A stretch of DNA of 64,000 nt from Candidatus Shapirobacteria bacterium (GCA_043817235.1 JBDRHA010000008.1:112-64111); one strand, 5' to 3'; positions 8,986-48,636 are shown, counted from the stretch's first letter. A program made the numbers and translations. Notes: a model not told the origin generated them from the sequence alone.

Positions 8986-9027
8986 CTTCTTGACTTCGGG
9001 TTTTTTTCGTGTTTCAATAAATTTAAT

Positions 9028-29936: not shown

Positions 29937-30003
29937 CTCAATTGGCTAGAGCATCCGCCTGTCACGCGGAAGGTTGCGGGTTCGAGTCCCGTTAGCCCCG
30001 CCA
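29927..30003 (+). tRNA. tRNA-Asp (anticodon GTC), CCA encoded
   Basis: ggggctg-ta-gctc...tccgc-ctgtcac-gcgga-aggtt-gcggg-ttcgagt-cccgt-tagcccc-g-cca. Confidence 0.9.
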
Positions 30004-30172
30004 ATCGGAGCACCCTGGTGACCGTGATACCTCGAATATCCCAAAAATACCTTCAAAACCTCTAGTTTTTAATTTTAACATTCGTACCGCACGCTCACTG
30101 TCCGGTAAAATACCGTAAAATAGGACTTTTGGGTGAGTTATAAGGATATTTCCAATTGAAAAACCTCTTTGA

Positions 30173-30423: not shown

Positions 30424-30504
30424 AGAGATGATTATTATAAAATATGTAGGCGTATCGATTTTGTATAAACCAACCAATCTCGAACTTTGTGGAATTAATG
30501 AATT

Positions 30505-30975
30505 ATGACTTCATATAAACATACTCAAATTGGATATCTGATGCTAATTGTGATGCTGGCCGTGCTGATTCTTTTCGCATGGGCTTATATTACGGCTTCA
30601 GCCGAACCTCCCTCGTATTACTCTGGCACAAATTTTGCCGTTACTGCCTTAATGGTATTAATTCTATTTATTCTTGCATCGTTTACCACGCTGACAGTGT
30701 CAATTGATGAAAACTATCTTCGAATCAAATTTGGATATGGGCTTTTTAAGAAGAAATTTTTACTAAGTAAAATGGTTTCTGTAAAAACTGTAAAGAATCC
30801 TTGGTATTACGGCTGGGGAATTAGGTTGTGTTTATGGCCCACTATATGGATCTATAACGTTTCAGGTTTTGATGCGGTTGAAATAATGATGAAGAACGGA
30901 AGGACGTATCGCATAGGCACAGATAATCCAAAAAAACTTGAGATGTCAATTAAGCGGGTTATCTTTACTACCTAA
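30505..30975 (+). CDS. Membrane protein with bacterial PH-like (DUF304/bPH_2-like) domain
   Basis: 156 aa; two N-terminal TM helices followed by small beta-rich domain (LTVSIDENYLRIKFG...). Confidence 0.35.
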   Translation: MTSYKHTQIGYLMLIVMLAVLILFAWAYITASAEPPSYYSGTNFAVTALMVLILFILASFTTLTVSIDENYLRIKFGYGLFKKKFLLSKMVSVKTVKNPWYYGWGIRLCLWPTIWIYNVSGFDAVEIMMKNGRTYRIGTDNPKKLEMSIKRVIFTT

Positions 30976-30978
30976 CGC

Positions 30979-34733: not shown

Positions 34734-34745
34734 TTTACTGCTTTC

Positions 34746-35966
34746 TCACTCATATCTTAATGCCTCAATTGGTAATAGTTTTGCTGCTCGTTGGGCCGGA
34801 TAATAACCAAATACAACTCCTACGACAGAAGAAACTCCGACGGCAAGAAGAATTGAGCTAAGAGAGACAACAAACGGGATATCTATAAGTCCAGAGATCA
34901 AAAATGACAAACCAATCCCTAGTGACATTCCGATTAAACCACCTACAAGAGTTAAAACAATTGCCTCGATTAAAAATTGTGTAAGAATGTCTCCATCTCT
35001 TGCTCCGATGGATTTTAAAAGGCCAATTTCTCGCGTTCGCTCAGTCACAGTCACAAGCATAATGTTCATAATGCCAATGCCACCAACTACAAGAGAAATT
35101 GCAGCAATTCCAGATAGCAATGCTGTCAAAAGTCCTGTCACCGACCCAACAGTATCCAATGCCTGTTGTGCACTGTTTACTGAAAAGTCATTATTCGCCC
35201 CCTCGATAATATCATGCTGATCTACCAACAAAGAAGTAATGTCATTAACTGTTTGATTTACCAGCTCTCCATTTTCAACTTGTATCAAAATCTGGGAAAC
35301 ATAATCTTGTCCAAGTAATATCTTCATGGCAGTATTTACCGGAATATAGACACCTTTGTTGGGGTTTGAGAAAGCACTACTATCCTTTTCTTGAAGCACT
35401 CCTATTACTCTAAAAGACTTGTTGTCAAGTTTTATAGATTCTCCAACAGGCTCAGCTTCTTCACCAAATAAATCAGCAACAACATCCGCTCCAATTACGG
35501 CAACACGAGAAAGACTGATTTCATCATCATTACTAAAAAACTCCCCTTGGTTAATCTCAAGTGATTGGATAGTTGAATAATCTGATCCAACACCTTGAAC
35601 TGTGGCATTTACGGTTTGTCCATTGGCACTTACCTGAAGCGGTTTCGAGGCTACTCCAGATACAGCTGAGATATTTTGCAATCTAGATTTGTCGGCAAGT
35701 GCTTCTACATCTTCAAGCTTGAGTGTGTCAGTCTGGTTTTGCCGTGGCCCCTGTCCACTTCCACTTGACCCCGGAAGTATAAATACTGTATTTGTTCCAA
35801 AAGAAGACAGCTGACCAGTAATGCTTGCTGTGGCTCCTTGCCCCAGCGAGATAATTAAAATAACAGAGGCAATACCAATAATTATTCCCAGCATAGTTAG
35901 TAGGGTACGAAGAATATTTCCTCTTAAAGCCCCAATTGCAGATGATATAAGTTCGTTGTAATTCAT
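34746..35966 (-). CDS. ABC transporter permease, FtsX/MacB-like
   Basis: 406 aa; N-terminal TM, large periplasmic domain, C-terminal 3-TM FtsX fold (TERTREIGLLKSIGARDGDILTQFLIEA). Confidence 0.8.
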   Translation of the reverse strand: MNYNELISSAIGALRGNILRTLLTMLGIIIGIASVILIISLGQGATASITGQLSSFGTNTVFILPGSSGSGQGPRQNQTDTLKLEDVEALADKSRLQNISAVSGVASKPLQVSANGQTVNATVQGVGSDYSTIQSLEINQGEFFSNDDEISLSRVAVIGADVVADLFGEEAEPVGESIKLDNKSFRVIGVLQEKDSSAFSNPNKGVYIPVNTAMKILLGQDYVSQILIQVENGELVNQTVNDITSLLVDQHDIIEGANNDFSVNSAQQALDTVGSVTGLLTALLSGIAAISLVVGGIGIMNIMLVTVTERTREIGLLKSIGARDGDILTQFLIEAIVLTLVGGLIGMSLGIGLSFLISGLIDIPFVVSLSSILLAVGVSSVVGVVFGYYPAQRAAKLLPIEALRYE

Positions 35967-35968
35967 GG

Positions 35969-36661
35969 TTAGTTAATAGTATCTGAAACAATCTCACCGT
36001 CTTTTAAGCGAATCGTGCGTTTTGCAAAGGCCGCGATATCGTCTTCGTGGGTAATAAGAACAATTGTGTGCCCCTTTTTATTAAGCTCACGGAAAAAAAC
36101 CATTATTTCGTGAGCTGTTTTGCTATCCAAATTTCCGGTTGGTTCATCAGCAAGGATGATAGCTGGGTTCATTACCAACGCCCGAGCAATAGCTACCCGT
36201 TGGATTTGACCACCGGAAATATGGTTAGAAAGATTGTCTGCTTTGTCGTCAATGCCAACTAACTCCAAACATTCCATCGCTCTTTTTTTCCGTCCCTCAA
36301 TATCTATACCGGCATACATCATCGGCCGTTCAACATTTTTAAAAACAGTGGTTCGCGGCAGTAAGTTAAAAGCTTGGAAAATAAAGCCAATTTCGTGGTT
36401 TCGGATATAGGCCAGATCATCACTATTGTAAGTGCTGATATCCTTGCCTTTTAAAAAATATTTACCACTCGTGGGAGTATCAAGCGCGCCTAGAATATGC
36501 ATTGTGGTTGACTTACCTGATCCCGAAGGACCCATAATCGCCACAAACTCGCCCTGATCAATATTAAGAGAGATTCCTTTTAATGCTCTGTAGGTGTCGT
36601 TTCCAACCCCATAATCTTTAACAATCTCTTTTAGTAAAATAACAGGTGTTCTTTTTTTCAT
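35969..36661 (-). CDS. ABC transporter ATP-binding protein (MacB/LolD-type)
   Basis: Start set at MKKRTPVILLKEIVKDYG to avoid overlap with adaptor gene; Walker A GPSGSGKST, signature ISGGQIQRVAIARAL, Walker B ILADEPTGNLD. Confidence 0.85.
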   Translation of the reverse strand: MKKRTPVILLKEIVKDYGVGNDTYRALKGISLNIDQGEFVAIMGPSGSGKSTTMHILGALDTPTSGKYFLKGKDISTYNSDDLAYIRNHEIGFIFQAFNLLPRTTVFKNVERPMMYAGIDIEGRKKRAMECLELVGIDDKADNLSNHISGGQIQRVAIARALVMNPAIILADEPTGNLDSKTAHEIMVFFRELNKKGHTIVLITHEDDIAAFAKRTIRLKDGEIVSDTIN

Positions 36662-36668
36662 ACATATT

Positions 36669-37871
36669 TTACCTACCAAACGGTCCTCCGCCATTAGCTT
36701 CAACAACTCCATTCTTAGCACCAGTTATTACTTCCATACCTTCTTCGACTCCACTTATTATCTGAGTTCTTTCGGGACTCTTAATTCCCACTTCAACTGG
36801 GATATATTTTGGCATGTCGGTTTGCGGGTCGATTACTTGTACTGCCTTGCCCCCTTGGTAGGGTTTAATTGCACTGTTTGGAACTATCAAGGCATTTTCA
36901 GCTTTATCGACTACAATATCTACATTTGCCGTCATCATAGAACGGATGGAGCTCTCGGGATCAATTATTTCAACCACAACCGTATAAGTGATAACTCCAT
37001 TAGCATTTATACCAATTGTGTCTACATGGGTTACCTTGCCTTGGAACTTTTTACCTGGAAAAGCGTCAAGGGTAAAAGTGGCAGACTGATCTACCTTTAC
37101 CTTAGGAATGTCAACCTCATTTAGCTCAAGAGTTACTGTATATCTTGAGAAGTTCCCAACCACCAAAACTGGGATTCCTCCTGTGCTGCTATTTCCAGCA
37201 ACTACATGGTCACCAGCCTTAGACAAAAAATTAGCCACAGTTCCACTTGCTGGAGCGCGGACTATGATATTTTGTGTTGCGAAGTAAGCTAGTTCGGCTG
37301 ATTTCAAGGAAGCTTCGGCAGCGGCAATGGCATCATATGCGGAGTCCCTTGCTGCTTGAGCTGTAGTTCTTAATGCTTTCTGTGCAAATGTCTCATCTGA
37401 GTCATGATCTTTTACATCGTCTTCCACTTTTTGCGCAGTTGCTTCGCGATCCCGATAGGTATTCAAGGCTTGATTATAGGCAGAAGAAGCACCTTGGTAT
37501 GTAGCGAAAGCCGCGGCTTTTTCTTGATCTGTAGCAGTACTCCTCACTTTAAAAAGATTCTGACCTGCCTTAACTTCTGCGCCATTTTCAATATATACAA
37601 CCTCTATAATTCCAGTTGAGCTTGAGTAAACATCAACTATACCAGAAGAGTTTACATTCCCAGTTTCGGATACAATTTGCTCAATATTCCTTCGTTCGAC
37701 TTTCTGAAAAAGATATTCCGGTTGATTGTTTGTATTTCCAATACGATTGAATGCAAAATAAGCAACTCCAAGAATCAAGGTGACAGTAATTATTTTTTTA
37801 ACTAGGCTAAGTTTCAAAAACCATTTTTTGACACGAAGAGCCCCACCTTTTATTTTTTTAAAGATTTTCAT
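36669..37871 (-). CDS. Efflux transporter periplasmic adaptor subunit (membrane fusion protein, HlyD/MacA-like)
   Basis: 400 aa; N-terminal TM anchor, coiled-coil region, beta-barrel/lipoyl-like segments typical of MFPs. Confidence 0.7.
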   Translation of the reverse strand: MKIFKKIKGGALRVKKWFLKLSLVKKIITVTLILGVAYFAFNRIGNTNNQPEYLFQKVERRNIEQIVSETGNVNSSGIVDVYSSSTGIIEVVYIENGAEVKAGQNLFKVRSTATDQEKAAAFATYQGASSAYNQALNTYRDREATAQKVEDDVKDHDSDETFAQKALRTTAQAARDSAYDAIAAAEASLKSAELAYFATQNIIVRAPASGTVANFLSKAGDHVVAGNSSTGGIPVLVVGNFSRYTVTLELNEVDIPKVKVDQSATFTLDAFPGKKFQGKVTHVDTIGINANGVITYTVVVEIIDPESSIRSMMTANVDIVVDKAENALIVPNSAIKPYQGGKAVQVIDPQTDMPKYIPVEVGIKSPERTQIISGVEEGMEVITGAKNGVVEANGGGPFGR

Positions 37872-37872
37872 T

Positions 37873-38367
37873 TTAATTTTCCTGCTCTTCCAGTGAGTGA
37901 AGTATTTTTTTGTGGATGCGTATTAGCTCTTTTAAGTCGCTTTCTGATATTAAGTCTAAAACCTTACCCATTTTGTGAAACATCCGCTTACGTGTCTCAA
38001 CTATCTCTGATCTGCCTTTATCAGTTAGATTAAGACGCACTATTCTACGATCGTTAACGTCGGGTTTTCTTGAAATCAGTTTGTTTTCGGTTAATCTGTC
38101 TGTAAATTGAGCAATAGATGAAGATGACATGTTTACAGCTTGAGCTAGCTCACTCACAGTTGAGTTTGGACTTTCGCTCAAATAAGATAATCCTTGCATT
38201 TGCAAAATTGTCGCAGCCTTATCTTCCAAGGAGCAGTTAACACTTCTTTCTGCAATGCGACTAATTTTGGTCACTGTTGCAAAAAATTCTTCGAATAATT
38301 CTTGTTTTATATTGTTCATAATTAACTTAGACATTAAGTATCTTAACATATAAGATATTGTTGTCAA
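37873..38367 (-). CDS. MarR-family transcriptional regulator
   Basis: 164 aa; wHTH with NDRRIVRLNLTDKGR recognition/wing motif; first gene of efflux operon. Confidence 0.7.
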   Translation of the reverse strand: MTTISYMLRYLMSKLIMNNIKQELFEEFFATVTKISRIAERSVNCSLEDKAATILQMQGLSYLSESPNSTVSELAQAVNMSSSSIAQFTDRLTENKLISRKPDVNDRRIVRLNLTDKGRSEIVETRKRMFHKMGKVLDLISESDLKELIRIHKKILHSLEEQEN

Positions 38368-38396
38368 TAGTTAATTTAATGTATTAATAATCCCCC

Positions 38397-38526
38397 TTTT
38401 TTATACTGTCTCATTTGTCTCACCGTGTCCATCCATAGCTTTAGCGAAGGAGGATTTAACCTCAGATGTGATATGCTTGGAGAAAGCAGTTATGAGCTCG
38501 AAAGGTTCTAGACCGGCCTGCTCAGC
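38397..38526 (+). repeat. Bipartite conserved element, copy A (tttttatactgtctcaYttgtctcac ... agttatgag...gaaaggtYctagaccgg..tgctcagc)
   Basis: 5' block (with TATACT -10-like hexamer and tandem tgtctcaYt direct repeat) and 3' block (ggtYctagacc hairpin) both near-identical to copy at 47925-48022; middle differs. Confidence 0.45.
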
Positions 38527-38697
38527 CAGTACGGGCACCTCTGCCGACCGAGGTACCTCAAATATCCCTTATTATCTTGTAAAACGCCCATTTTCAAAGC
38601 CGAGAATTCGAACCGCTTTTTACCCTCAAAAAAGCCCCGTTCGAATCCGACTTCTGCCATTGTTTTAACTTGCTTCCTGTGATATAATTCGTTCAGT

Positions 38698-39336
38698 ATG
38701 TTAGAGAATAGGACCAGGAAAAGAATTTTTGAAATGCTTAGCCAGGCAATAAGCAGCGGGGAAGTAATTTCTCTTCGGAATATTGGGGACGAGCTTGGCT
38801 TGGCTGCCAACACGATTCTTTATCACATCAAAAAGCTTGAAGAGAAAGGGCTTGTTATCAGAAATATTGATGGCAAGGTGATCCGCATCAATTCCCCGGA
38901 AGATAATTCTGCTATTGCCTTCTTGCCTCTCTTAGGAAATGCCGCCTGTGGGGAACCCCTGGGTTCAATCGTTGAAACCGAGACGATCCGTATGATCCCG
39001 GTACCACTTAACATTCTGGGAAGAAATTCCAAGCGCAACCTCTACATGATTGAAGCAGTTGGAGACAGTATGGCAGAAAAGATTGAAAACGGTGATTATG
39101 TTATTTTCGAGCCTAACCCCTCGCCTAATCCTGGGCAGATTGTTGTGGCCAGAACAAAAGATGGATTTACAATTAAAGTTTTTAAGAAAACAGCCTCTCA
39201 GTGTATTTTGAAACCATTAAATCCAAATTATCTCCCTCTGGTTTTTGACAAAAGTGAGATAGATGAATCTTTCAACATTGACGGTGTAGCTGTGGGGATT
39301 TTTAAACCGCAGGGAAATTTAGGAGGAGGCGGGTAA
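38698..39336 (+). CDS. LexA-like repressor paralogue (wHTH + S24 peptidase), island-associated
   Basis: 212 aa; S24 catalytic Ser in AVGDSM and Lys in FTIKVFKK; N-terminal wHTH (LGLAANTILYHIKKLEEKGLV). Confidence 0.6.
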   Translation: MLENRTRKRIFEMLSQAISSGEVISLRNIGDELGLAANTILYHIKKLEEKGLVIRNIDGKVIRINSPEDNSAIAFLPLLGNAACGEPLGSIVETETIRMIPVPLNILGRNSKRNLYMIEAVGDSMAEKIENGDYVIFEPNPSPNPGQIVVARTKDGFTIKVFKKTASQCILKPLNPNYLPLVFDKSEIDESFNIDGVAVGIFKPQGNLGGGG

Positions 39337-39480
39337 AAATGGCAAAAGTTATATGCCCATTGTTTCCTAATGGTATCAGCAACATAAGATACAGGCAAAT
39401 TAGAAACCCAAGGGATTTTATTCATGTTGCCTTTATTAAAAATTCTTTTGGAAAGAGGACAAGGAAGGGGATGTCGAAAA

Positions 39481-39675
39481 ATGAAACCTAGAAATACATA
39501 CAAGTATGACTTTAAGGTCGGAAACAAAATAATGCACAGCGGGATTACTAGGAACCTAGATAGGCGTGAATTGGATCATAAACAAAAGTGGCCCAAAGGT
39601 CATACTGTTCAGATTGGCCGAAGAACAACCGAAGAAGCTGCCAGAAAATGGGAGGAAACAAAACAGAAAAGTTAA
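39481..39675 (+). CDS. Small GIY-YIG-like protein (weak)
   Basis: 64 aa from MKPRNTYKYDFKVGNKIMHSGITRNLDRRELDHKQ; Y-x10-(H/Y)SG-x-T...R...H spacing resembles GIY-YIG core; purine-rich RBS upstream. Confidence 0.3.
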   Translation: MKPRNTYKYDFKVGNKIMHSGITRNLDRRELDHKQKWPKGHTVQIGRRTTEEAARKWEETKQKS

Positions 39676-39709
39676 AATAATGATTGAGAAACGAGCAAAA
39701 TGAAAGGAG

Positions 39710-40090
39710 GTGAAATTTATGAAAAAGCGCATATTTATTAGCTTTGACTATGACCATGACAAAAACTATCGCTATTTATTGGCAGCCTTAGCCAAGAATC
39801 CACGATCTGATATTGAGTTTGACGATCTAACGCCAGAAGAGATTCAAAGCTACGATATTGGTCGAATAAAGGCAGTCTTAACGAGGAAAATAAGACAAGC
39901 TACGCATACATTAGTAATCATTGGAAAGCATGCAAATAGTTATCACCCGGACAGAGATGAAATTGGAGATCGAAATTGGCAGTGGTGGGAAATTAATAAG
40001 AGCGATGAGGAAAGAAAAGGATTTATCGCCGTAAAGATAGATTCATCCAACGACTCGCCGGAACCTTTGTATGGGAAAGGCGCAACTTGA
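39710..40090 (+). CDS. TIR-like domain protein (DUF1863/ThsB-like)
   Basis: 126 aa; N-terminal KKRIFISFDYDHDKNY strand (compare ThsB-type R-V-F-F-S-F-H-Y-x-D), THTLVIIGKH block, WQWWEINKSDEERKGFIAVKID with conserved Glu in W-E-I; GGAGG RBS 8 nt upstream. Confidence 0.55.
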   Translation: MKFMKKRIFISFDYDHDKNYRYLLAALAKNPRSDIEFDDLTPEEIQSYDIGRIKAVLTRKIRQATHTLVIIGKHANSYHPDRDEIGDRNWQWWEINKSDEERKGFIAVKIDSSNDSPEPLYGKGAT

Positions 40091-40143
40091 GCAAAAACTT
40101 TTTCTGTTGATTCAATAGTAAATGCGATTGATAATGCTTAATT

Positions 40144-40797
40144 ATGGTAGCCACCGACGATACAAAACTTGAAATTCTGCACGATCACTATAAAGAAAGC
40201 TTCTCGTACATTCGTGGATGGGAAGAAAAACGTGATAGGCTTTTTATATTTGTGATTGCTATGATTGGTGTCTTATTTCTCGAGATACAGTATTCCGATC
40301 TTTTTTCAAGTATTTTGGGGAATATCAAATTGGAGTTTATAGAATTAAATATCGCCTTAATGCCTATTTCTGTTTTTTTGAGTCTTACATGGACTTATTT
40401 GTTTACGATTATATTGAAATATTGCCAACAGTCCATCCTTATTGAAAGACAATATAACTACCTGCATCACTTAGAGGGTAAAATATCCAAGTTTTTTGGC
40501 GGCCGGAACATTTACTGCCGTGAGAGCAGAGCGTACCTCAATAAGTATCCCCTCTTTTCGGAGTTAGCCTGGATTTATTATGGCTTTTTGTTTCCATCAA
40601 TAGCGATACTCTCAGTCTGGCTAGTTATTTATCTTGAGTGGAACAAAATTTCAGGGCCACTATATCACTTGGTCTATGATTCATTTTTGAGCATAGCAGT
40701 AATTACGTGTTTGATATTTTATAGATTTTATCCTTTAGGTAAAAAAATAGTACTGAAGGTGAAAGATAGAATTAATTTGGCTTTTCGGGCGAAATAG
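40144..40797 (+). CDS. Four-TM membrane protein adjacent to TIR-like gene (candidate effector; SLATT-like?)
   Basis: 217 aa; ~35-aa cytoplasmic N-terminus, TM1-TM2, ~50-aa basic loop, TM3-TM4; 53-nt gap after TIR-like gene, same strand. Confidence 0.4.
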   Translation: MVATDDTKLEILHDHYKESFSYIRGWEEKRDRLFIFVIAMIGVLFLEIQYSDLFSSILGNIKLEFIELNIALMPISVFLSLTWTYLFTIILKYCQQSILIERQYNYLHHLEGKISKFFGGRNIYCRESRAYLNKYPLFSELAWIYYGFLFPSIAILSVWLVIYLEWNKISGPLYHLVYDSFLSIAVITCLIFYRFYPLGKKIVLKVKDRINLAFRAK

Positions 40798-40878
40798 TTT
40801 GGCGCCTGCCGAACTTAACAATGAGCAATGTACGATAGAGAAATGGAGTTGTGAGGCCCAGATTAAAGTCTTGTGTAA

Positions 40879-42186
40879 TTACCTTATCGGAGCTGAGCAG
40901 ACTTCCTTGTCGTGGACATAAAGATGTTTGCCGAACACTTTAACGATTTCCCTTTTTTCTTCATCAGCACCATCCCTAAGGACATATTTGGCGTATTCCG
41001 TAAAAGAAACTTCCCCTGAGCCAGGATTAATGTCTTTGAGTAGTAGCACTTGTTCTCGGATTTTCCGATAGGTTTCTATTCCAATTTTAACTTTTGGAGT
41101 CAGCTTAATTTTTTGAGGGTGGTGCATGCTCATAAAATTGATATATCTGATTAGCGCTCCGATCAGTCGTTTTTCGTTGAGCATGGGTTCTTTACATCGT
41201 TTGTTTCTGGCTTTGGAGCATTGGTAGTAGACATGCCTTCTTGGATCACGATGTTTTCTTTTTCTGAATTTTTCTTCGCCGGTGACGGTAGCTCCGCAAC
41301 TGGCACATTTGAAAATGCTTCTAAAGAGTACGTTCCGACTACCCCATTTTGACTTTTTAGGAACCACCAACTTTCTTCTGGTTTCGTTAAATATCTTTTT
41401 GGTAATCAATGGTTTATGCCCACCCTTATACCAATTACCGCTGCCAATCGAGTATTCGAATTCACCATAATAAAACGGATCGCCAAGCATTCGGTAAACT
41501 TGGCTCAAAGTTAATGGCTTGCCGGATTTATTATTAAAACCAACCTTGTCAGCCCATTTTTTAATTTGCCTACCGCTTTCTCCATTTATTACCCTGCTAA
41601 ACATTTCGGTTATGTATTTACCTCTGTCTGGGTCAACAGCGATATCTTTCTTACCAGCAAATGAGCGGTTAATATAACCGATTGGCGATGGCCCTGGTCG
41701 CCAGCCCATTTCACACTTGGCTCGGATTCCTCTTTTGACATTTATTCCCCTGTTATCGTTTTCTAACTTCGCCTGACTACATAAAATCATTAGCAGAAAC
41801 TTTTCGTTGGGATTATTAGAGAAACTTTGAGAGAAAGTTCGTATCTGGAGTAGTTTTTCCTGATCCATCAAATCAACCAGCATTCCCAAATCGCCAGCAT
41901 TACGACTCAATCGATCCGGTGCCCAAGTTAAAATGCCGCTAAATTTCCCCTGAGCAACATCAGCCAGAAGCTTGTTAAAAACTGGTCGGGTACTGGAGAT
42001 CTTGGCCGAATGGCTTTCTTGATAAATCTCTAAGATTTCAAGGCTATCCCGTTTGGCCAGAGTTTTCATTTCCTTTATCTGTGATCCGATTGACATTGCT
42101 TGTCGTTCGTCTGACTCGCTAGACTTTCTGGCATAAAGGCAATAGTTGATCAAGTCGTTTTGGGTAGCGCTTTCTATCATCAACAC
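40879..42186 (-). CDS. Large serine recombinase (resolvase/invertase catalytic domain + recombinase + zinc-ribbon)
   Basis: 435 aa; catalytic CLYARKSSESDE (Y-x-R-x-S), recombinase-domain region, Cys cluster CASCGA...C...C. Confidence 0.8.
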   Translation of the reverse strand: MLMIESATQNDLINYCLYARKSSESDERQAMSIGSQIKEMKTLAKRDSLEILEIYQESHSAKISSTRPVFNKLLADVAQGKFSGILTWAPDRLSRNAGDLGMLVDLMDQEKLLQIRTFSQSFSNNPNEKFLLMILCSQAKLENDNRGINVKRGIRAKCEMGWRPGPSPIGYINRSFAGKKDIAVDPDRGKYITEMFSRVINGESGRQIKKWADKVGFNNKSGKPLTLSQVYRMLGDPFYYGEFEYSIGSGNWYKGGHKPLITKKIFNETRRKLVVPKKSKWGSRNVLFRSIFKCASCGATVTGEEKFRKRKHRDPRRHVYYQCSKARNKRCKEPMLNEKRLIGALIRYINFMSMHHPQKIKLTPKVKIGIETYRKIREQVLLLKDINPGSGEVSFTEYAKYVLRDGADEEKREIVKVFGKHLYVHDKEVCSAPIR

Positions 42187-42234
42187 AAGGAATGACGCAA
42201 AGGGAAGGCTAAGTCAAGGCCCAAACGATGAATT

Positions 42235-43305
42235 TTAAATCTTTGCTAGTTGCTTAAGGAGTTGCTCGAAAGCTTTGATAGAGTAGTCCTTTATTCGCCA
42301 TTTAGCCATTATACCGAAAGAGGTTTTCATTTTTTCTGAAATTTCAGCTTCGGGAATTACCTCTTTGATTATTTTTCTCGATTCTTGGTCAATGTTTTTA
42401 GTGCCCCAAAATTCCAATTTTGGACCTTGGTTACCAGCAACTATTGGAAAGGAAATTGTTATCTTGTCACCAATGCTTGTTGTCACATAAAAATTTAAGT
42501 TTCTGGGAGTTTTGACAACAGCAACATTTTTCACCTCTTTCCCCCTTTCCTTTAATTGGTTAAAAAAGATGATCAACTTTTTAATATTTTTTTCTTCAGC
42601 TAATCCCTGATATGCTTCTACAAAATCTTCATCTGTCGGAATACTTCGGGTTGATTTAACTCCAAGGTCCTTTTTAACTTCTGCGCCGAATAACTTCGGA
42701 ATCAGAATTTCAAAGCCTTTGTGTTTGTAAAATTCCAGCTCAACTGCGTAAACGGTAAACTCACTGTTGTTATTTAAGAAGATAATCAGATCCTTTAATT
42801 GAGGATGAAGATGATCCATGAGGACTACAAACTTAAAGTTGCCGTCACTCAGATTTCTTCTGGTGTTTTCCAAAAGGTTGTCGGTTTCGTCTTCTGAGAT
42901 ACCGAAAAACTCCCCCAGCCTTTGACTTAAGGTTTTATTAAAATCCTTATTGGTATTAAGACTAACTTGTTCGACGAAATCGGTAAAATCTCGGTAATTC
43001 GACCAAAGTGATGCTCCGTAATCCAGAACCTGCGCAACCACCATTCTTTTATCCGGATTTTTGTAAAGCTTCGTTTCAATTAGATAAATCTCCCCCTCTC
43101 TATCCACACCCAAAGCATCAATCGATCCACTTTTTGTTGTAAACTCACGAGCTAAGATTAAAAGTCTTATGTCTTCTTTAATATCATAAAGGGGAATACT
43201 TTCGGGATTGTCATAAATATACTGTTGAAGATGATCTTCAAGTTCAAAATTGCTCTTGTTTATTTTGATCGCGTTCTTGCCATTTTTTGAGACGATGATT
43301 GCCAT
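42235..43305 (-). CDS. Restriction-endonuclease-like (PD-(D/E)XK fold) protein, family unassigned (Shedu/DUF4263-like possible)
   Basis: 356 aa; N-terminal GSIDALGVDREGEIYLIETKLYKN ... QVLDY fits D-(x)n-E-x-K nuclease core. Confidence 0.35.
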   Translation of the reverse strand: MAIIVSKNGKNAIKINKSNFELEDHLQQYIYDNPESIPLYDIKEDIRLLILAREFTTKSGSIDALGVDREGEIYLIETKLYKNPDKRMVVAQVLDYGASLWSNYRDFTDFVEQVSLNTNKDFNKTLSQRLGEFFGISEDETDNLLENTRRNLSDGNFKFVVLMDHLHPQLKDLIIFLNNNSEFTVYAVELEFYKHKGFEILIPKLFGAEVKKDLGVKSTRSIPTDEDFVEAYQGLAEEKNIKKLIIFFNQLKERGKEVKNVAVVKTPRNLNFYVTTSIGDKITISFPIVAGNQGPKLEFWGTKNIDQESRKIIKEVIPEAEISEKMKTSFGIMAKWRIKDYSIKAFEQLLKQLAKI

Positions 43306-43481
43306 TTACCCTCCAGTTATTTTTAGCTGGAGGGTTTAAATGATAAAGGCTCCCCTCCAGCTGATGGTCCTTACGGAATCCACCCGCCAACCTTTCGATT
43401 GGTGACCTGCAGAAGGCAACACTGACGAGGAGCTCTCGTCCCTTCTGCAGGACTTTCTTGCCATGCCCCGATTATTCGGGG
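43306..43481 (-). promoter_or_regulatory. GC-rich structured 5' leader of the 42235-43305 gene with alternative RBS-sequestering helices
   Basis: On the minus-strand RNA: hairpin ccccgaauaaucgggg; long hairpin ccugcagaagg...ccuucugcagg; then cagcuggagggg / cccuccagcu / cuggaggg(uaa)AUG, where the middle segment can pair with either neighbour. Confidence 0.35.
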
Positions 43482-43617
43482 TTTAGGCAATATTTAATGG
43501 TAACGTTTTTTATTTTGATATTTTTAGTGATTTAATAAAGAAGCAAAACAACACAGATCTCCTGATTCCAGCCATAATCAATCTAAGGACCTCAGTTTAA
43601 TTAAGGCTAAATATTGC

Positions 43618-44160
43618 TTAAAGTTTTTTGTTCTTTTTAGCTTTATATAGACTCCACGCACTTAACACGGGGAAAATGATAATTTTGTTTCTTGCTATCA
43701 TATCTTCTATCTCTTTCTCAGAAAACCAAAAACTCTTAATACCCTCTTCTTCCGAATCCTTCCTTAAATAAGGAGCTTTTTCTAGATGCCTCCCCAGGTA
43801 AACAAAGACCATTGTGGCAGAACGTCGATTGTTTAGTAAAAACTTTCCCAAGAGTATTAATTTTTTGGCTCGTAGTCTAGCTTCCTCTGCAAGCTCGCGA
43901 TTAGCGCCAACTTCTGGACTTTCATTAACCTCAAGCGCTCCTCCAGGAAATTGATAAAGTTCTCGATCTTGAGGATAAGAATACTCTTTCTGCAAAAGAA
44001 TCTTTCTGTCTTTTCTGATAGCTATAACTAACGCTGTATCAGTCCTATGCTTAAATTTAAGATAGGTTGTCTTTGCACCACTCGGAAGTACAACTTCATC
44101 CTCAATCACAGTTAGTCGAGAATGAACAAGAGTTTCCTTAGATGAAATTTTTTTCCACAT
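43618..44160 (-). CDS. NUDIX hydrolase
   Basis: 180 aa; Nudix box GGALEVNESPEVGANRELAEEARL. Confidence 0.75.
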   Translation of the reverse strand: MWKKISSKETLVHSRLTVIEDEVVLPSGAKTTYLKFKHRTDTALVIAIRKDRKILLQKEYSYPQDRELYQFPGGALEVNESPEVGANRELAEEARLRAKKLILLGKFLLNNRRSATMVFVYLGRHLEKAPYLRKDSEEEGIKSFWFSEKEIEDMIARNKIIIFPVLSAWSLYKAKKNKKL

Positions 44161-45722: not shown

Positions 45723-46994
45723 ATGTATATCTTAGGCATACAGGGAAATTTTGGTAGACCAGAGCATGATCCTAGTGCGGTTTTAATATGTGACAATGAA
45801 TTAATAGCCGCAGTAGAAGAAGAAAGATTAATCAGATATAAGTGCGCATTTGGCGTAATGCCTGACAGAGCGATCAGATATTGCCTCAAAACAGCGGGTA
45901 TAACCATGAAGGACGTTGATGTTCTCGCTTTTCCGAGAAACACTTGGACCGGGCACGAAAATCGATTAAATTGGTATTCCGAATACAACTTTGGTTTTAG
46001 GCCAAAAAAAATTGAGTTTTTCGGTCATCATTTAGCCCATGCCGCTTCAACATACCACTACTCAGGTTATAAGAAATCTCTGATTCTTACAATTGATATG
46101 ACGGGTGACGGCATATCGTTGGCTGTTTTCAGAGCCAAGGGTAACAACATTCAATTAGTTCATGAAGTTCCTTTCCCTAATTCGCTGGGTATATTTATGG
46201 CATTAATTACCCAATATCTTGGGTTTAGAAGTAGTCAGGATGAAGGAAAGGTTATGGGCTTGGCTGCCCACGGAACCCCAAGCATCGATATGTCCCCTTT
46301 GCTAAAAATTACCAAAGATGGATATAAGTTTAACCCCAAAAGTTTACATCCGGAAGTATTTAAGAGATATCCAGAATTTCATATGAGACAGTTGCCTTTT
46401 TTCAGCAAGATGGTCGAGGGGGTTTTACCGAAAAGAAGATTGGCTAATGAGGAAATCCTAACAGAACATAAAAATATTGCTGCTAGTGCCCAAAAAATAG
46501 TTGAGGATGCGGTTTTTAAAATTATCGAATTATTTAAGAAAAGGAGTGATGAATATTTGTGCCTTGCCGGTGGAGTAACCCAAAACTCAGTATTAAATGG
46601 GAAAATTGTGAGCAGTAGATTATTTAAAGAGGTCTTTATTGCTCCAGCAGTTGGTGACGCAGGCAGCGCATTAGGTGCTGCAACTTTAGCACAAGTGCAA
46701 TCCGGTTTTAAGCCAAAGGTCATGAAATCATGTTACCTGGGCCCAAGTTATTCAAGTGAATATATTAAAAGTTATCTCGAGAAAAATCGTATTAAATATA
46801 AAGAATATCCGGATAGCGTCGACAAAGTGGCCAGTGATCTAGCCGAAGGGAAAATAGTTGCCTTGTTCCAGGGCCGTATGGAATTTGGGCCAAGAGCCTT
46901 GGGCAACAGATCACTACTGGCCAACCCAAAAACTAAAGGAATGAAATATAAAGTTAACATTATAAAAAATCGTGAACAATTTAGGCCCTACTGA
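45723..46994 (+). CDS. Carbamoyltransferase (NodU/CmcH family) N-terminal domain, C-terminally truncated
   Basis: 423 aa; Kae1/HypF-like fold motifs (MYILGIQGNFGRPEHDPSAVLI, FFGHHLAHAASTYHYSGY, AGGVTQNSVLNG); ends at NREQFRPY where full-length proteins continue FRPFAP... Confidence 0.6.
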   Translation: MYILGIQGNFGRPEHDPSAVLICDNELIAAVEEERLIRYKCAFGVMPDRAIRYCLKTAGITMKDVDVLAFPRNTWTGHENRLNWYSEYNFGFRPKKIEFFGHHLAHAASTYHYSGYKKSLILTIDMTGDGISLAVFRAKGNNIQLVHEVPFPNSLGIFMALITQYLGFRSSQDEGKVMGLAAHGTPSIDMSPLLKITKDGYKFNPKSLHPEVFKRYPEFHMRQLPFFSKMVEGVLPKRRLANEEILTEHKNIAASAQKIVEDAVFKIIELFKKRSDEYLCLAGGVTQNSVLNGKIVSSRLFKEVFIAPAVGDAGSALGAATLAQVQSGFKPKVMKSCYLGPSYSSEYIKSYLEKNRIKYKEYPDSVDKVASDLAEGKIVALFQGRMEFGPRALGNRSLLANPKTKGMKYKVNIIKNREQFRPY

Positions 46995-47801
46995 AAAATA
47001 CCGAGCATAATCTGCTATGGTTCTAACACTATCCGGAATTTCAATTTTCTTTACGGGCAACATTTTTTCATCAAGATTAATATTTTCTTTTTTAAAAACC
47101 GCCACATCTATGTGGGCCAAATACTGATGGTTTTTTGTAGTTACGTACTTACTCTCTCCATGTTTAGAATTCAAAACAAACTCATAAGCCGATAGCCCAC
47201 CAGCAAATCCGCCATCTGATCTAATTTTAAATACTTTTAAAGTCAGATCATCAAAGAATTTAATAAAAATGTCTGATATTTTCTTGTACTCTTTTTGAAA
47301 ACTGGACTCGTCAGCGTGAAAGGAATAGGAGTCCATCATGGTAAATTCTTTCAGCCTTAGTAGCCCACGAGTATGATATTCATTCCTAAACTTCTTTCCA
47401 AACTGGAAAAAATTAACTGGTAAATCGTTACGAGCAATATTGTAATTTCTAATTAAATTTAAATACATCTCTTCCGGAGAAGCTGCCAAATTATATCTAG
47501 AACCACCACGATCAATTAAATTAGTTACAAAAAAATCCCCTAAATAATTACGCCTACTTTCCTCCCAAAGATTATTTGAATGAAAAAGAGGAAGCATGGT
47601 TTCTTGTGCTCCAATTTTCCACATATATTCCCCCAATAACCTAGTTACATTATGGAACACAATCATGCCGAGAGGCAAAAAATAATACCTTCCGTTTCTA
47701 TATTTTTGTATAAAACAGCCATTTCTCAAAAACTTTTCAACTGATCCTAACGAAGATTTACTTTTTTTATTAGTTTTAAAAAATATTTTTGATAGCCTCA
47801 T
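46914..47801 (-). pseudogene. Bacterial-type proline--tRNA ligase N-terminal fragment (truncated after motif 2)
   Basis: 295 aa; LPVNFFQFGKKFRNEYHTRGLLRLKEFTMMDSYSFHADESS aligns with bacterial ProRS motif 2 region; lacks motif 3 and anticodon-binding domain; overlaps the truncated carbamoyltransferase by 81 nt. Confidence 0.6.
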
Positions 47802-47924
47802 TGATTTTACTTAATTCTATCATAGCTTTTAGTAATTATTTGGCCTTTAATGAAACATCTATGCCTTCGGCAATCTTGTCGAGATAGCTATAATTGAGAT
47901 TAATCACGCTGGTTATGAAATCTC

Positions 47925-48022
47925 TTTTTTATACTGTCTCACTTGTCTCACTTAGCCTCGAAATGATACACTAGAAATACTGAGTTATGAGGATAGAAAG
48001 GTCCTAGACCGGTATGCTCAGC
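47925..48022 (+). repeat. Bipartite conserved element, copy B
   Basis: ttttttatactgtctcacttgtctcac ... gagttatgaggatagaaaggtcctagaccggtatgctcagc; see copy A at 38397-38526. Confidence 0.45.
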
Positions 48023-48135
48023 TGAAAAGAAATATCTGCCTTTCATAAATTCTGCCCATAAGGAGGTGAATTAACATAGCAAAAAAACAAGAAAGCTCTC
48101 TGCCTAGAGAACAAATTATCAGTACTATTCTAGGA

Positions 48136-48636
48136 ATGGTGGTCGTAATCATTGTGGGCACTTTGGTTTATCGGTATTTTCAAAAGAATCAAGAGCAAGA
48201 ATCCATTACATCCGAAGATGCTAGCGAGCAAGAAGAGACAAGTTCGCCCGCATTAGAAAATTTACCCGCTACTTATACGGTCATAGCCGGAGACAATCTC
48301 TGGGAAATAGCGGAAAACTATTATCATTCAGGCTATAATTGGGTAGATATTGCAGAAGAAAACAGCTTAGCAAATCCCAATGGGCTGGAGATCGGACAGG
48401 AACTAATTATTCCAGATGTAGACCCCCGCCAGGTTACGGTAACTGCGGTTGCCGCCGGAGAAACGATTAGTCAAGGAACTTATACAGTTCAGGAAGGAGA
48501 TTGGCTGAGCAAGATTGCCCTGCGTGCTTATGGCGATATGTTTGCTTGGGAAAAAATTTATGAGGCAAACAAAAATACTATCGGACCCAATCCTAATCTA
48601 GTAGAGCCAGGTCAAGTCTTGACTATTCCGGAATAA
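48136..48636 (+). CDS. LysM-domain protein (two LysM repeats)
   Basis: 166 aa from the ATG; two LysM motifs (YTVIAGDNLWEIAENYY..., YTVQEGDWLSKIALRAYG...); frame open upstream to 48070 with strong SD aaggaggtg at 48060-48068, so a non-ATG start near 48076 is possible. Confidence 0.75.
   Translation: MVVVIIVGTLVYRYFQKNQEQESITSEDASEQEETSSPALENLPATYTVIAGDNLWEIAENYYHSGYNWVDIAEENSLANPNGLEIGQELIIPDVDPRQVTVTAVAAGETISQGTYTVQEGDWLSKIALRAYGDMFAWEKIYEANKNTIGPNPNLVEPGQVLTIPE

What the first reader, a model, noticed from the sequence alone, without database searches (positions are those of the whole stretch)
38397..43481. About 5-kb mobile/defence island: LexA-like S24 repressor, GIY-YIG-like ORF, TIR-like + 4TM pair, large serine recombinase, PD-(D/E)XK protein
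Between the efflux operon and the NUDIX/proS genes lies a block of genes with no housekeeping role. It contains a second LexA-type repressor (the canonical lexA is at 9028), a small GIY-YIG-like ORF, the TIR-like/4-TM pair, a large serine recombinase with zinc ribbon, and a restriction-endonuclease-fold protein. The block is bracketed on the left by a repeated element (copy A) and on the right by a structured GC-rich leader. The serine recombinase suggests an integrative element. The LexA-like repressor could couple island expression to DNA damage. Boundaries are unclear: the copy B repeat at 47925 would give a 9.5-kb segment that also carries the archaeal-type proS.
Basis: partly seen in the sequence, partly recalled or inferred. 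Interest (0 to 1): 0.6.

Follow-up and report, generated by a model that had tools for sequence, protein, structure and literature searches.

The report
Decayed integrative defence island in Shapirobacteria
The 5-kb block is a real accessory island: a cut-down copy of a widespread, apparently undescribed family of serine-recombinase elements that insert at tRNA-Gln genes of candidate-phyla-radiation bacteria and carry swappable anti-phage genes behind a LexA-like repressor.

Summary
The genes are there as described. There is an S24/LexA-like repressor with an intact autocleavage triad, a ThsB-type TIR protein paired with a 4-helix membrane protein, a large serine recombinase (LSR) and a PD-(D/E)XK-like protein. 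The "GIY-YIG" call is weak. The "GC-rich leader" is a LOOT RNA (Rfam RF03000).

The closest genome (L001, ProRS 87% identical) keeps NUDIX-proS synteny but has none of the island genes. Homologs of the recombinase and repressor (80-83% identical) travel together in many CPR contigs. The common order is: tRNA-Gln | 135-nt "block 3" | cargo slot | LSR | (PD-(D/E)XK, LOOT) | TerL-like | small protein | ParB-methylase | S24 repressor | defence cargo | "box element" (BE).

The same alternative junction separates two contigs that are 99.98% identical.

The window copy lacks the TerL/ParB-methylase module and has no recognisable right att site. It is best read as a reduced, probably immobilised family member. 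The TIR-membrane pair recurs at 88%/67-71% identity beside restriction-modification (RM) genes in unrelated contexts.

It is a new member of a known kind. The element termini (BE, block 3) and the LOOT linkage are the unexplained parts.

The parts
38396..38526 (+). Box element (BE) copy A. It comprises the box TTTATACTGTCTCATTTGTCTCA (38400-38422), a leader, and a tRNA-3'-end-like block AAAGGTTCTAGACCGGCCTGCTCAGC (38501-38526). BE is the cargo-side terminus of the element family.
38523..38529 (+). CAGCCAG, the sequence shared by tRNA-Gln 3' ends and BE at the junction with block 3. This is the inferred crossover region of the serine recombinase.
   Evidence: junction alignment; L097 and L099 diverge exactly here
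38527..38663 (+). Block 3: a conserved ~135-nt recombinase-side terminus of the family. In relatives it directly follows tRNA-Gln.
38660..38688 (+). Promoter-like TTGTTT-17 nt-TGATATAAT, 10 nt before the S24 start codon. The mRNA would be near-leaderless.
   Evidence: read (inference, no test)
38698..39336 (+). S24 (LexA/CI-like) repressor: wHTH plus an autocleavage domain with a Cys-Gly site, the GDSM Ser and a Lys.
39481..39675 (+). Small ORF (64 aa from ATG 39481, 83 aa from 39424), weakly GIY-YIG-like. Status uncertain.
39719..40090 (+). ThsB-type TIR-only protein. The start at Met4 is set by alignment with an 88% identical homolog.
40144..40797 (+). Four-long-helix membrane protein, the conserved partner of the TIR gene.
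40879..42186 (-). Large serine recombinase. The public record starts it at 42180 (433 aa).
42235..43305 (-). PD-(D/E)XK-like protein. It lies upstream of the recombinase in L086 and L096 as well.
43363..43489 (-). LOOT RNA (RF03000). The module's similarity to L086 (read from the alignment) runs to about 43497; L096 matches up to about 43500.
47924..48022 (+). BE copy B (box + leader + tRNA-like block) upstream of the LysM gene. The box is at the syntenic position in L001.
30001..30138 (+). Diverged second copy of block 3, directly 3' of tRNA-Asp (29927-30003).

Best explanation
Window 38396-43497 is a reduced copy of a widespread family of integrative elements of CPR bacteria.

**Full-size family members (about 12-13 kb).** The order, written with the tRNA on the + strand, is: tRNA-Gln | block 3 | optional cargo slot | large serine recombinase (-) | often PD-(D/E)XK (-) and LOOT RNA | TerL-like (-) | ~145-aa protein (-) | ParB_N-N6/N4 methylase (-) | S24 repressor (+) | variable defence cargo (+) | box element BE (+).

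**Integration (inferred).** The recombinase joins the BE|block 3 junction of a circular form (attP) to the 3' end of tRNA-Gln. The crossover lies in or next to CA(A/G)CCAG, which covers the discriminator and CCA.

**Regulation (inferred).** The S24 protein would keep the element silent and be cleaved after DNA damage, in the manner of LexA or CI.

**State of the window copy.**
- The TerL/methylase core is missing.
- The S24 repressor with a small ORF, a ThsB-type TIR and its 4-helix membrane partner sits in the slot between block 3 and the recombinase.
- The left end is BE fused to block 3 (attP-type) instead of tRNA-Gln|block 3.
- No att-like site follows LOOT.

**Reading.** The island is therefore most likely a fixed or decaying remnant. 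Its junction probably arose by recombination between two resident elements or by a tandem insertion.

**Cargo.** The TIR + membrane pair is a horizontally moving two-gene module. It most plausibly acts as an abortive-infection system, with TIR signalling or NAD+ cleavage and membrane damage as the effector step. That function is inferred, not shown.
For: **Organism and absence in the relative.** The window is from Ca. Shapirobacteria. L001 (ProRS 87%) keeps ProRS2-carbamoyltransferase-ProRS-NUDIX. It then has 1.25 kb of unrelated or decayed DNA, then block 3 + tRNA-Gln, and no island gene.

**Size of the recombinase family.** Relatives also lie on IMG/VR viral contigs.

**Shared architecture.** S24 <-> ParB-methylase, ~145 aa, TerL-like, (PD-(D/E)XK), recombinase occurs in L081 (S24 80%, Rec 83%), L086, L096 and L100.

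**Recombinase side.** Recombinase -> block 3 -> tRNA-Gln (CTG or TTG) is seen in L083, L086, L088, L099 and L100, and tRNA-Gln with block 3 in L216 and L160.

**Cargo side.** BE lies 2-6 kb beyond S24/ParB-methylase and is co-oriented with S24 in L133, L115, L203, L155, L177 and L128. It lies 3.5-10 kb from the recombinase gene, on the far side, in L143, L214 and L182.

**BE|block 3 junctions.** These occur in the window, L097/L098, L170, L213 and L158. L097 and L099 are 99.975% identical over 12,070 bp and diverge exactly at this junction: BE in one, tRNA-Gln in the other.

**Repressor.** The S24 catalytic set is conserved across island repressors and the housekeeping LexA.

**Variable cargo behind S24.** Type ISP RM + AAA ATPase in L086 and L096; a SNF2/DEAD helicase in L100, which also carries an MvaI/BcnI RM pair on the other side of its S24 gene; and HNH-like + OLD-like proteins in L081.

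**TIR/membrane pair.** It recurs beside a methylase + CfrBI restriction enzyme in two other host contexts. A distant membrane homolog sits beside a TIR_2 protein.
Against: - No empty attB was recovered: no tRNA-Gln without block 3, and no alignable empty site. Only the NUDIX gene end aligns between the window and L001.
- The window order (S24 operon between block 3 and the recombinase) differs from the common order. No simple single event derives it.
- BE also occurs in front of ordinary-looking genes (L001 5192-5212, window copy B). In several contigs it looks like a separate small-RNA gene with its own terminator. Its role as an att arm is therefore not exclusive or proven.
- There is no compositional difference from the genome.
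- Recombination, SOS cleavage and defence are all inferred from family knowledge.
- In L097/L099 the adjacent recombinase is frameshifted, so the observed polymorphism needs another recombinase or homologous recombination.
Confidence: 0.68

Rival explanations
1. The real element is the 9.6-kb segment from block 3 (38527) to BE copy B (48022). It would carry the island plus NUDIX, archaeal-type proS, the carbamoyltransferase and the truncated second proS as cargo. It may still be mobile, flanked by BE copies in direct orientation.
For: The segment has the canonical polarity: it starts with block 3 and ends with a complete BE, including the tRNA-like block. BE copy A precedes it, as in a tandem array. 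L001 also has BE or box copies on both sides of NUDIX...ProRS2.
Against: NUDIX-ProRS-carbamoyltransferase-ProRS2 is syntenic and 80-89% identical in L001, whereas everything between block 3 and NUDIX differs. That fits vertical host genes next to a variable slot. No other family member carries such genes. The L001 box at the syntenic site lacks the tRNA-like block and simply precedes a gene start. A sole archaeal-type proS on a mobile element would be hazardous for the host.
Confidence: 0.1
2. This is a fixed chromosomal defence locus. The recombinase is domesticated (an invertase or resolvase-type switch, or inactive). The repeats are promoters or small-RNA genes unrelated to integration.
For: BE behaves like a promoter plus short transcript with terminators in some contigs, and it precedes ordinary genes. 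There is no compositional signal and no right att site. The TerL/methylase core is absent from the window.
Against: The recombinase has the full integrase architecture. Its best PHROG hit is 'integrase' at 1.3e-57. It is adjacent to tRNA-Gln | block 3 in many genomes. Relatives lie on viral contigs. BE sits consistently at the far end of the same elements. The island is absent from the nearest genome.
Confidence: 0.15
3. The BE|block 3 junction is an assembly artefact: reads from a circular, excised form were merged with the integrated form.
For: The junction is exactly what a circular form would carry. The source is a metagenome-assembled contig (P0001 lies on a 64,673-bp MAG contig).
Against: The same junction type occurs in independent assemblies: L097 and L098 from different projects, plus L170, L213 and L158. 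The window contig continues without a break into host genes on both sides. A chimera would need two further unexplained joins.
Confidence: 0.06

Closest known systems
Large-serine-recombinase prophages and islands (SPbeta SprA/YokA, TP901-1, phiC31/Bxb1 type; SCCmec Ccr recombinases)
   Same: Same three-domain recombinase (Resolvase, Recombinase, zinc ribbon). The integrase gene lies next to one element end. The core shared between attachment partners is short (about 7 bp). The arms have loose dyad similarity rather than long identity.
   Different: The target is the extreme 3' end of tRNA-Gln. The element ends carry long conserved non-coding blocks: 135-nt block 3, and a 100-130-nt BE with a promoter-like box. 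These are not needed by known LSR att sites. No recombination directionality factor is identified.
Phage-inducible chromosomal islands / phage satellites and P4-like defence hotspots
   Same: A small element (about 12 kb) with a repressor, an integrase and terminase-type genes. No capsid or tail genes were noticed (family searches were run on few element proteins). A variable defence cargo sits at a fixed position.
   Different: It occurs in CPR bacteria. The repressor is an S24 self-cleaving type that leads the cargo operon. The integrase is a serine, not a tyrosine, recombinase. Helper dependence is unknown. The window copy lacks the terminase module altogether.
Thoeris (ThsB TIR + ThsA effector), especially type II with a membrane-spanning ThsA
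   Same: A ThsB-family TIR protein (PF08937, PADLOC ThsB models) is encoded next to a membrane protein, in defence-type neighbourhoods.
   Different: The partner has no SIR2, SLOG or Macro domain and no PADLOC or Pfam hit. It is a 217-aa four-helix protein with no structural relative in the PDB. It is not a canonical Thoeris.
LexA / lambda CI / UmuD S24 family
   Same: wHTH plus S24 domain with Ser and Lys. The Cys-Gly cleavage site is as in UmuD (that comparison is from memory; alignment).
   Different: It scores below the LexA equivalog cut-off (101 vs 110.95 bits) and is 27% identical to the genome's own LexA. It heads a cargo operon instead of regulating an SOS regulon.
LOOT RNA motif (Rfam RF03000)
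   Same: A full-length match above the gathering score.
   Different: Rfam lists it as an sRNA. Here it is an element-borne RNA lying 56-77 nt upstream of a PD-(D/E)XK gene in 4 of 6 copies.

Membership tests
Large serine recombinase (integrase type) | N-terminal resolvase catalytic domain with the serine nucleophile | tested here: met
   PF00239 at 2.7e-21 over residues 17-161. The YARKSSESDERQ motif is visible.
Large serine recombinase (integrase type) | Recombinase domain plus zinc beta-ribbon domain C-terminal to the catalytic domain | tested here: met
   PF07508 at 1.2e-10 and PF13408 at 1.5e-8. Aligns to SPbeta integrase residues 12-375.
Large serine recombinase (integrase type) | Catalyses attP x attB recombination with a 2-bp crossover | not testable with these tools
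   Only inferred, from junction comparison.
LexA (housekeeping SOS repressor, TIGR00498) | Score at or above the equivalog cut-off | tested here: not met
   101 bits against a cut-off of 110.95. A separate canonical LexA is at 9028-9640.
S24 self-cleaving repressor (LexA/CI/UmuD superfamily) | Ser-Lys dyad and an Ala/Cys-Gly cleavage site | tested here: met
   The Gly of the site, the Ser of GDSM and the Lys are invariant in the 6-sequence alignment. The site reads AAC-GEP.
S24 self-cleaving repressor (LexA/CI/UmuD superfamily) | RecA*-stimulated autocleavage | not testable with these tools
   Needs biochemistry.
Thoeris | ThsB: TIR-like domain protein | tested here: met
   PF08937 at 1.1e-9. 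PADLOC ThsB at 6.6e-8 and PDC-M50B at 3.6e-8.
Thoeris | ThsA effector (SIR2-SLOG or Macro-TM) encoded alongside | tested here: not met
   The neighbour at 40144-40797 has no Pfam, PADLOC, PHROG or NCBIfam hit. The model is a bare four-helix protein.
GIY-YIG nuclease | Match to the GIY-YIG catalytic domain profile | tested here: not met
   No Pfam hit at E<=10. There is only a 23-residue local similarity to the window's true GIY-YIG protein.
PD-(D/E)XK nuclease fold | D...(D/E)xK motif in a restriction-endonuclease-like core | tested here: inconclusive
   The motif IDALG...LIETK is seen by eye. NucS_C scores 17.1 bits, below the cut-off of 24. NCBIfam NucS scores 2.7e-5, far below its cut-off. 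PADLOC PDC-S11 scores 3.9e-15. No structure was predicted.
LOOT RNA (RF03000) | Covariance-model score at or above the gathering threshold over the full model | tested here: met
   76 bits against 46.4, model positions 1-121.
Prophage / phage satellite | Packaging or structural genes (terminase etc.) within the element | tested here: not met
   Present in relatives. None lies in window 38396-43497.
CPR tRNA-Gln element family defined here | Block 3 terminus, BE terminus, LSR and S24 repressor of the same clades | tested here: met
   Block 3 at 1.4e-39. BE exact. Rec 83% and S24 80% identical to L081.
CPR tRNA-Gln element family defined here | Integrated next to a tRNA-Gln gene | tested here: not met
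   There is no tRNA-Gln in the window. BE occupies its place at the block 3 junction.

The most novel reading that the evidence does not exclude
The two termini may not be passive att arms. On this reading BE is an element-borne small-RNA gene. It has a strong promoter-like box, a 70-130-nt transcript ending in a mimic of a tRNA 3' end, and sometimes its own terminator. Its last 25 nt double as the P arm of attP and co-vary with the tRNA that is targeted (Gln vs Ser). On circularisation, its outward promoter would read across the junction into block 3 and the cargo slot. Together with LOOT (a leader or sRNA tied to the PD-(D/E)XK-recombinase module), this would give a family of CPR elements whose integration state is read out and controlled by dedicated non-coding RNAs.
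Probability: 0.2. Interest if true: 0.75.

Novelty: new member of a known kind. Interest (0 to 1): 0.5.

Why it matters
Mobile elements and anti-phage systems of CPR/Patescibacteria are poorly charted. The four literature searches made here turned up no description of this family.

The comparison gives a usable definition of an abundant family. The definition includes a target (the tRNA-Gln 3' end), both termini, a repressor-led cargo position that collects RM, helicase, OLD-like and TIR systems, and a genomic home for the orphan LOOT RNA.

This makes three things directly testable. The first is an LSR with a defined natural attB/attP pair from an uncultivated phylum. The second is a TIR + minimal membrane-protein module that moves between phyla. 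The third is the function of LOOT.

The window copy itself is an ordinary decayed island.

Tried and rejected
- **Exact look-up of the recombinase ORF** found nothing because of the start-codon choice. The 433-aa public version was found by homology.
- **Rfam at permissive E-values** on copy A/block 3 and copy B gave only chance-level hits.
- **Block 3 pattern in IMG/VR** gave no match.
- **Empty-site alignment** between the window and L001 downstream of NUDIX: only the gene end aligns.
- **Block 3 as a structured RNA.** RNAalifold on 5 and on 12 copies gives weak folds. One hairpin has two compensatory cases and the rest is sequence conservation. I did not build a covariance model.
- **BE as a structured RNA.** There is no consensus fold on a MAFFT alignment of 55 copies. 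The alignment is unreliable in the variable middle, so this is not a negative result.
- **Box as the S24 operator.** The TGTCTCA repeat is absent from the S24/ParB-methylase divergent promoter regions of canonical elements, so I rejected it.
- **Box as a fixed -35/-10 promoter.** The upstream GAGACA occurs at two different distances and in only 47 of 131 copies. The generic promoter scan of the region is at chance level.
- **Small ORFs after S24** as a frameshifted homolog of the L081 98-aa gene: no similarity. The small ORF also has no similarity to the 79-aa gene upstream of the TIR pair in L223.
- **PHROG scan of the genes beyond BE in L097**: only an excisionase/MerR-type HTH hit, so its phage nature is undecided.
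- **Structure search of the membrane protein**: nothing below E 0.29 in the PDB. The AFDB library was not available.
- **PDB sequence searches** for the PD-(D/E)XK and TIR proteins gave no significant hit.
- **Compositional analysis** gave no signal for the island.

Full report
**1. What is in the sequence**

Profile searches give the following.

- **38698-39336 (+):** an N-terminal winged HTH (HTH_20, HTH_24, LexA_DNA_bind) plus Peptidase_S24 at 2.9e-22. The best PHROG hit is 'transcriptional repressor' at 7.6e-23. The NCBIfam LexA equivalog scores 101 bits, below its cut-off of 110.95.
- **39710-40090 (+):** ThsB_TIR PF08937 at 1.1e-9 and PADLOC ThsB and PDC-M50B models at about 1e-7 to 1e-8.
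- **40144-40797 (+):** no hit in any library.
- **40879-42186 (-):** Resolvase + Recombinase + Zn_ribbon_recom, PHROG 'integrase' at 1.3e-57, and SPbeta integrase structures at 1.5e-12.
- **42235-43305 (-):** weak NucS-type hits below cut-off, PADLOC candidate family PDC-S11 at 3.9e-15, and a visible D...ExK motif.
- **39424/39481-39675 (+), the 'GIY-YIG-like' ORF:** no profile hit even at E<=10. It has only a 23-residue resemblance to the true GIY-YIG protein at 29667-29936.
- **9028-9640:** the housekeeping LexA, 27% identical to the island protein.

The 'GC-rich leader' is a full-length LOOT RNA (RF03000, 76 bits, gathering score 46.4) at 43363-43489 on the minus strand. The repeat pair 38396-38423 / 47924-47951 is real, 27/28 identical, with no match in 100 shuffles. 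It continues into a second shared block, GAAAGGTYCTAGACCGG..TGCTCAGC.

**2. Organism and nearest relative**

ProRS relatives place the window in Candidatus Shapirobacteria, in the Microgenomates group of the CPR.

Only one of the 80 loci returned (one genome per species) shares synteny: L001, with ProRS 87% identical. ProRS2, the carbamoyltransferase, ProRS and NUDIX are conserved at 80-89%. After NUDIX, L001 has about 1.25 kb holding a short PLD-like fragment and an unrelated ORF. Then comes a 160-nt stretch homologous to window 38503-38664, lying directly 3' of tRNA-Gln(CTG), and then a 5S rRNA gene.

None of the six island genes is present in L001. The block between this conserved stretch and NUDIX is therefore variable between close relatives, which is what an island predicts. 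Composition does not mark it (tetranucleotide z about -0.3).

**3. The island belongs to a large element family**

The 120 listed are 59-100% identical. Those that carry a name are from Patescibacteria lineages.

Gene neighbourhoods of homologs at 68-83% identity show a recurrent layout in L081, L086, L096 and L100. A 207-213-aa S24 repressor is transcribed one way, followed by defence-type genes. Transcribed the other way are a ParB_N-N6/N4 methylase, a ~145-aa protein, a TerL-like protein of ~380-530 aa, sometimes the 357-aa PD-(D/E)XK homolog (62-67% identical), and finally the recombinase.

L081 carries both an 80% identical S24 protein and an 83% identical recombinase. The two window genes therefore belong to one element lineage. 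Relatives of the recombinase at 47-61% identity lie on IMG/VR viral contigs.

The genes behind S24 differ from element to element:

- Type ISP RM + AAA_15/AAA_13 ATPases in L086 and L096;
- two small ORFs + a SNF2/DEAD helicase in L100, with an MvaI/BcnI RM pair on the other side of its S24 gene;
- an HNH-like protein + an OLD-like ATPase in L081;
- the small ORF, TIR and membrane protein in the window.

The repressor thus heads a variable cargo position.

**4. The two termini**

*Block 3 (window 38527-38663).* It follows the 3' end of tRNA-Gln (CTG or TTG) and lies just beyond the 3' end of the recombinase gene. It is convergent with that gene and is separated from it by zero to a few cargo genes. 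This holds in L083, L086, L088, L099 and L100, and in L216 and L160 block 3 again follows tRNA-Gln. L001 has the relic version. A diverged copy follows tRNA-Asp in the window itself, at 30001-30138.

*The box element (BE).* It consists of the box TTTATA(C/G)TGTCTCATTTGTCTCA, a leader, and a block resembling a tRNA T-arm plus acceptor end, GGTYCNAGACC-N6-GCTC(A/C)GC(CA).

In those contigs BE lies on the far side of the element from the recombinase and is co-oriented with S24. In L133, for example, the order is recombinase (-) 1191-2450, TerL (-), ~145 aa (-), ParB-methylase (-) up to 8189, S24 (+) 8618-9142, and box (+) at 13228. The same order is seen in L115, L203, L155, L177 and L128, and consistently in L143, L214 and L182.

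Full elements are therefore about 12-13 kb, with block 3 at the recombinase end and BE at the cargo end.

**5. The junction**

Aligned junctions show that tRNA-Gln ...GC(A/C)(A/G)CCAG and BE ...GCTCA(A/G)CCAG are followed by the same ACGGGCACC... of block 3.

L097 and L099 come from related samples and are 99.975% identical over 12,070 bp. They part exactly there. L099 continues with tRNA-Gln and housekeeping genes. L097 and L098 continue with a complete BE and other genes.

BE|block 3 is also found in L170, L213 and L158. In L170 it is followed by the recombinase, TerL and ParB-methylase.

On established knowledge of large serine recombinases, attP and attB share only a short core and loosely similar half-sites, and attL/attR are hybrids. 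The simplest reading is then:

- BE|block 3 is attP;
- tRNA-Gln|block 3 is attL;
- BE|flank is attR;
- the crossover lies in or beside CA(A/G)CCAG at the tRNA's discriminator-CCA.

This is inference. No recombination was observed and no unoccupied attB was recovered.

**6. The window copy**

The order in the window is as follows.

| Feature | Coordinates | Strand |
|---|---|---|
| BE | 38396-38526 | + |
| Block 3 | 38527-38663 | + |
| Promoter-like TTGTTT-17-TGATATAAT | 38660-38688 | + |
| S24, small ORF(s), TIR, membrane protein | 38698-40797 | + |
| Recombinase | 40879-42186 | - |
| PD-(D/E)XK | 42235-43305 | - |
| LOOT | 43363-43489 | - |
| Unique sequence | about 120 nt | |
| NUDIX | 43618-44160 | - |

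Homology to the LOOT-PD-(D/E)XK-recombinase module of L086 ends at about 43497, and L096 matches to about 43500.

Compared with full elements, the window copy differs in four ways:

- the TerL/~145-aa/ParB-methylase core is missing;
- the S24 operon lies in the slot between block 3 and the recombinase;
- the left junction is attP-type;
- no BE or other att-like sequence follows LOOT. The next BE is copy B at 47924-48022, whose box is at the syntenic position in L001.

I therefore read the island as a reduced and probably immobilised relic. An attP-type junction inside a chromosome can arise in two ways. One is tandem insertion. The other is attL x attR or homologous recombination between two resident elements. 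The L097/L099 polymorphism shows such an exchange happening in nature.

The stretch from tRNA-Asp|block 3-like (30001) to BE copy A (38526) has the polarity of such a second element. It is also the most compositionally atypical part of the window (z up to 2.4). It holds only transporter genes and a MarR regulator, so this remains a lead.

**7. Repressor**

I aligned the island protein, four element homologs and the genome's own LexA. The Gly of the cleavage site is invariant: AAC-G in the island type, AA-G in LexA. So are the Ser of G(D/E/N)SM and the Lys. A Cys-Gly site is used by UmuD (from memory). The autocleavage machinery is therefore intact. Damage-induced derepression of the cargo operon, or of the element, is plausible but untested.

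**8. TIR + membrane pair**

The membrane protein has about 80 relatives and no annotation. Homologs at 67-71% identity lie immediately downstream of a 140-aa ThsB_TIR protein. That TIR protein is 88% identical to the window's in the one pair compared, L223. The pair occurs in two other genomic backgrounds, each time after a HEAT-N6/N4 methylase, an RE_CfrBI restriction enzyme and a small ORF. A 44% identical homolog sits beside a giant TIR_2-cyclase-kinase protein.

The pair is thus a conserved, horizontally transferred module of defence neighbourhoods. The AF2 model (pLDDT 82) is four long helices with no ligand-binding domain and no PDB relative. Conserved polar motifs (LHDHYKESF..., Y..E..S...Y.RE) lie in the non-membrane parts of the helices.

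It is not a canonical Thoeris, because no ThsA-type partner is present. The likely logic is that TIR activity triggers or cooperates with a membrane effector, giving abortive infection. This rests on analogy only.

**9. LOOT**

Six LOOT copies were found among the element loci. In four (window, L086, L096, L094) a PD-(D/E)XK homolog starts 56-77 nt downstream. In two (L095, L133) a terminator-like hairpin with a T-run follows instead.

In the window the linker can form either AGCUGGAGGG/CCCUCCAGCU or CCCUCCAG/CUGGAGGG. The second would hide the GGAGG ribosome-binding site. This was read by eye and not tested. LOOT is thus an element-borne RNA tied to this module. Whether it acts as a leader or as an sRNA is open.

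**10. What stays unexplained**

Block 3 is conserved mainly at the sequence level. One hairpin has two compensatory cases among 12 copies.

BE in some contigs is followed at once by an intrinsic terminator. A second class of BE has a leader resembling the 5' half of block 3. Its 3' block comes in GCTCAGCCA and GCTCCGCCA variants, and tRNA-Gln and tRNA-Ser dominate the tRNAs in BE-bearing contigs. BE may therefore be a small-RNA gene whose end doubles as an att arm. No Rfam family matches it.

**11. Verdict**

The object is a new, reduced member of a known kind: an LSR-integrated, repressor-controlled element carrying defence cargo. It belongs to an abundant CPR family for which I found no description. 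The interest lies less in this decayed copy than in the family architecture and its non-coding termini.

Noticed in passing
window 43306-43489 (-); L086 8680-8868; L096 8374-8555; L094 5332-5523: LOOT RNA lies 56-77 nt upstream of a PD-(D/E)XK homolog in 4 of 6 copies. In L095 and L133 a terminator-like hairpin follows instead. The window linker can form two mutually exclusive hairpins, one of which hides the ribosome-binding site.
   Followed up: partly
L103-L222 (metagenome loci); window 38396-38526 and 47924-48022: The box element (TTTATA[CG]TGTCTCATTTGTCTCA + leader + tRNA-3'-end-like block) occurs in at least 120 metagenome contigs. It comes in two leader classes, is sometimes followed directly by an intrinsic terminator, and has no Rfam match. 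It may be an undescribed small-RNA gene.
   Followed up: partly
window 29667-30505: A genuine GIY-YIG gene (29667-29936) overlaps the 5' end of tRNA-Asp (29927-30003). The tRNA is followed by a diverged copy of block 3 (30001-30138) and about 365 nt of non-coding DNA. This may be a relic of a related element at tRNA-Asp.
   Followed up: partly
window 30000-39000: This stretch has the most atypical tetranucleotide composition in the window (z 1.6-2.4). It lies between the tRNA-Asp|block 3-like site and BE copy A and holds ABC exporters, a MacAB-like efflux set and MarR.
   Followed up: no
window 45723-47801 vs L001 5315-9812: The second, bacterial-type ProRS is truncated in the window (295 aa vs 569 aa in L001). 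The carbamoyltransferase is shortened (423 vs 497 aa). The glycosyltransferase gene between them in L001 is missing. This is a deletion in the window lineage.
   Followed up: partly
L097/L098 12949-13032 vs L099 12065-12139: Contigs that are 99.975% identical over 12 kb differ only beyond the outer edge of block 3: one has BE, the other tRNA-Gln. This is a natural polymorphism at the inferred att junction, although the adjacent recombinase is frameshifted.
   Followed up: partly
L223-L226 4290-5813; L229-L231: The ThsB-TIR + membrane pair (L223 TIR 88%; membrane proteins 67% and 71% identical to the window's) forms a cassette with a HEAT-N6/N4 methylase, an RE_CfrBI enzyme and a 76-79-aa ORF in two other, apparently unrelated gene neighbourhoods (host organisms not identified).
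   Followed up: partly
L001 12913-13116 and 12340-12813: A 67-aa fragment resembling the N-terminus of a PLD/helicase-type defence protein, plus an unrelated 157-aa ORF, lie between block 3 and a BE in L001. This looks like a decayed element at the same chromosomal position.
   Followed up: no
window 48060-48140: The LysM gene (ATG 48136) has an in-frame upstream extension starting just after a strong AAGGAGGTG site at 48060-48068. No standard start codon lies there, so the true start is uncertain.
   Followed up: no
window 39339-39491: A 50-aa ORF starts 3 nt after the S24 stop codon behind a strong GGAGGAGG site and overlaps the start of the 'GIY-like' ORF. It is unclear which of the small ORFs is real.
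   Followed up: no
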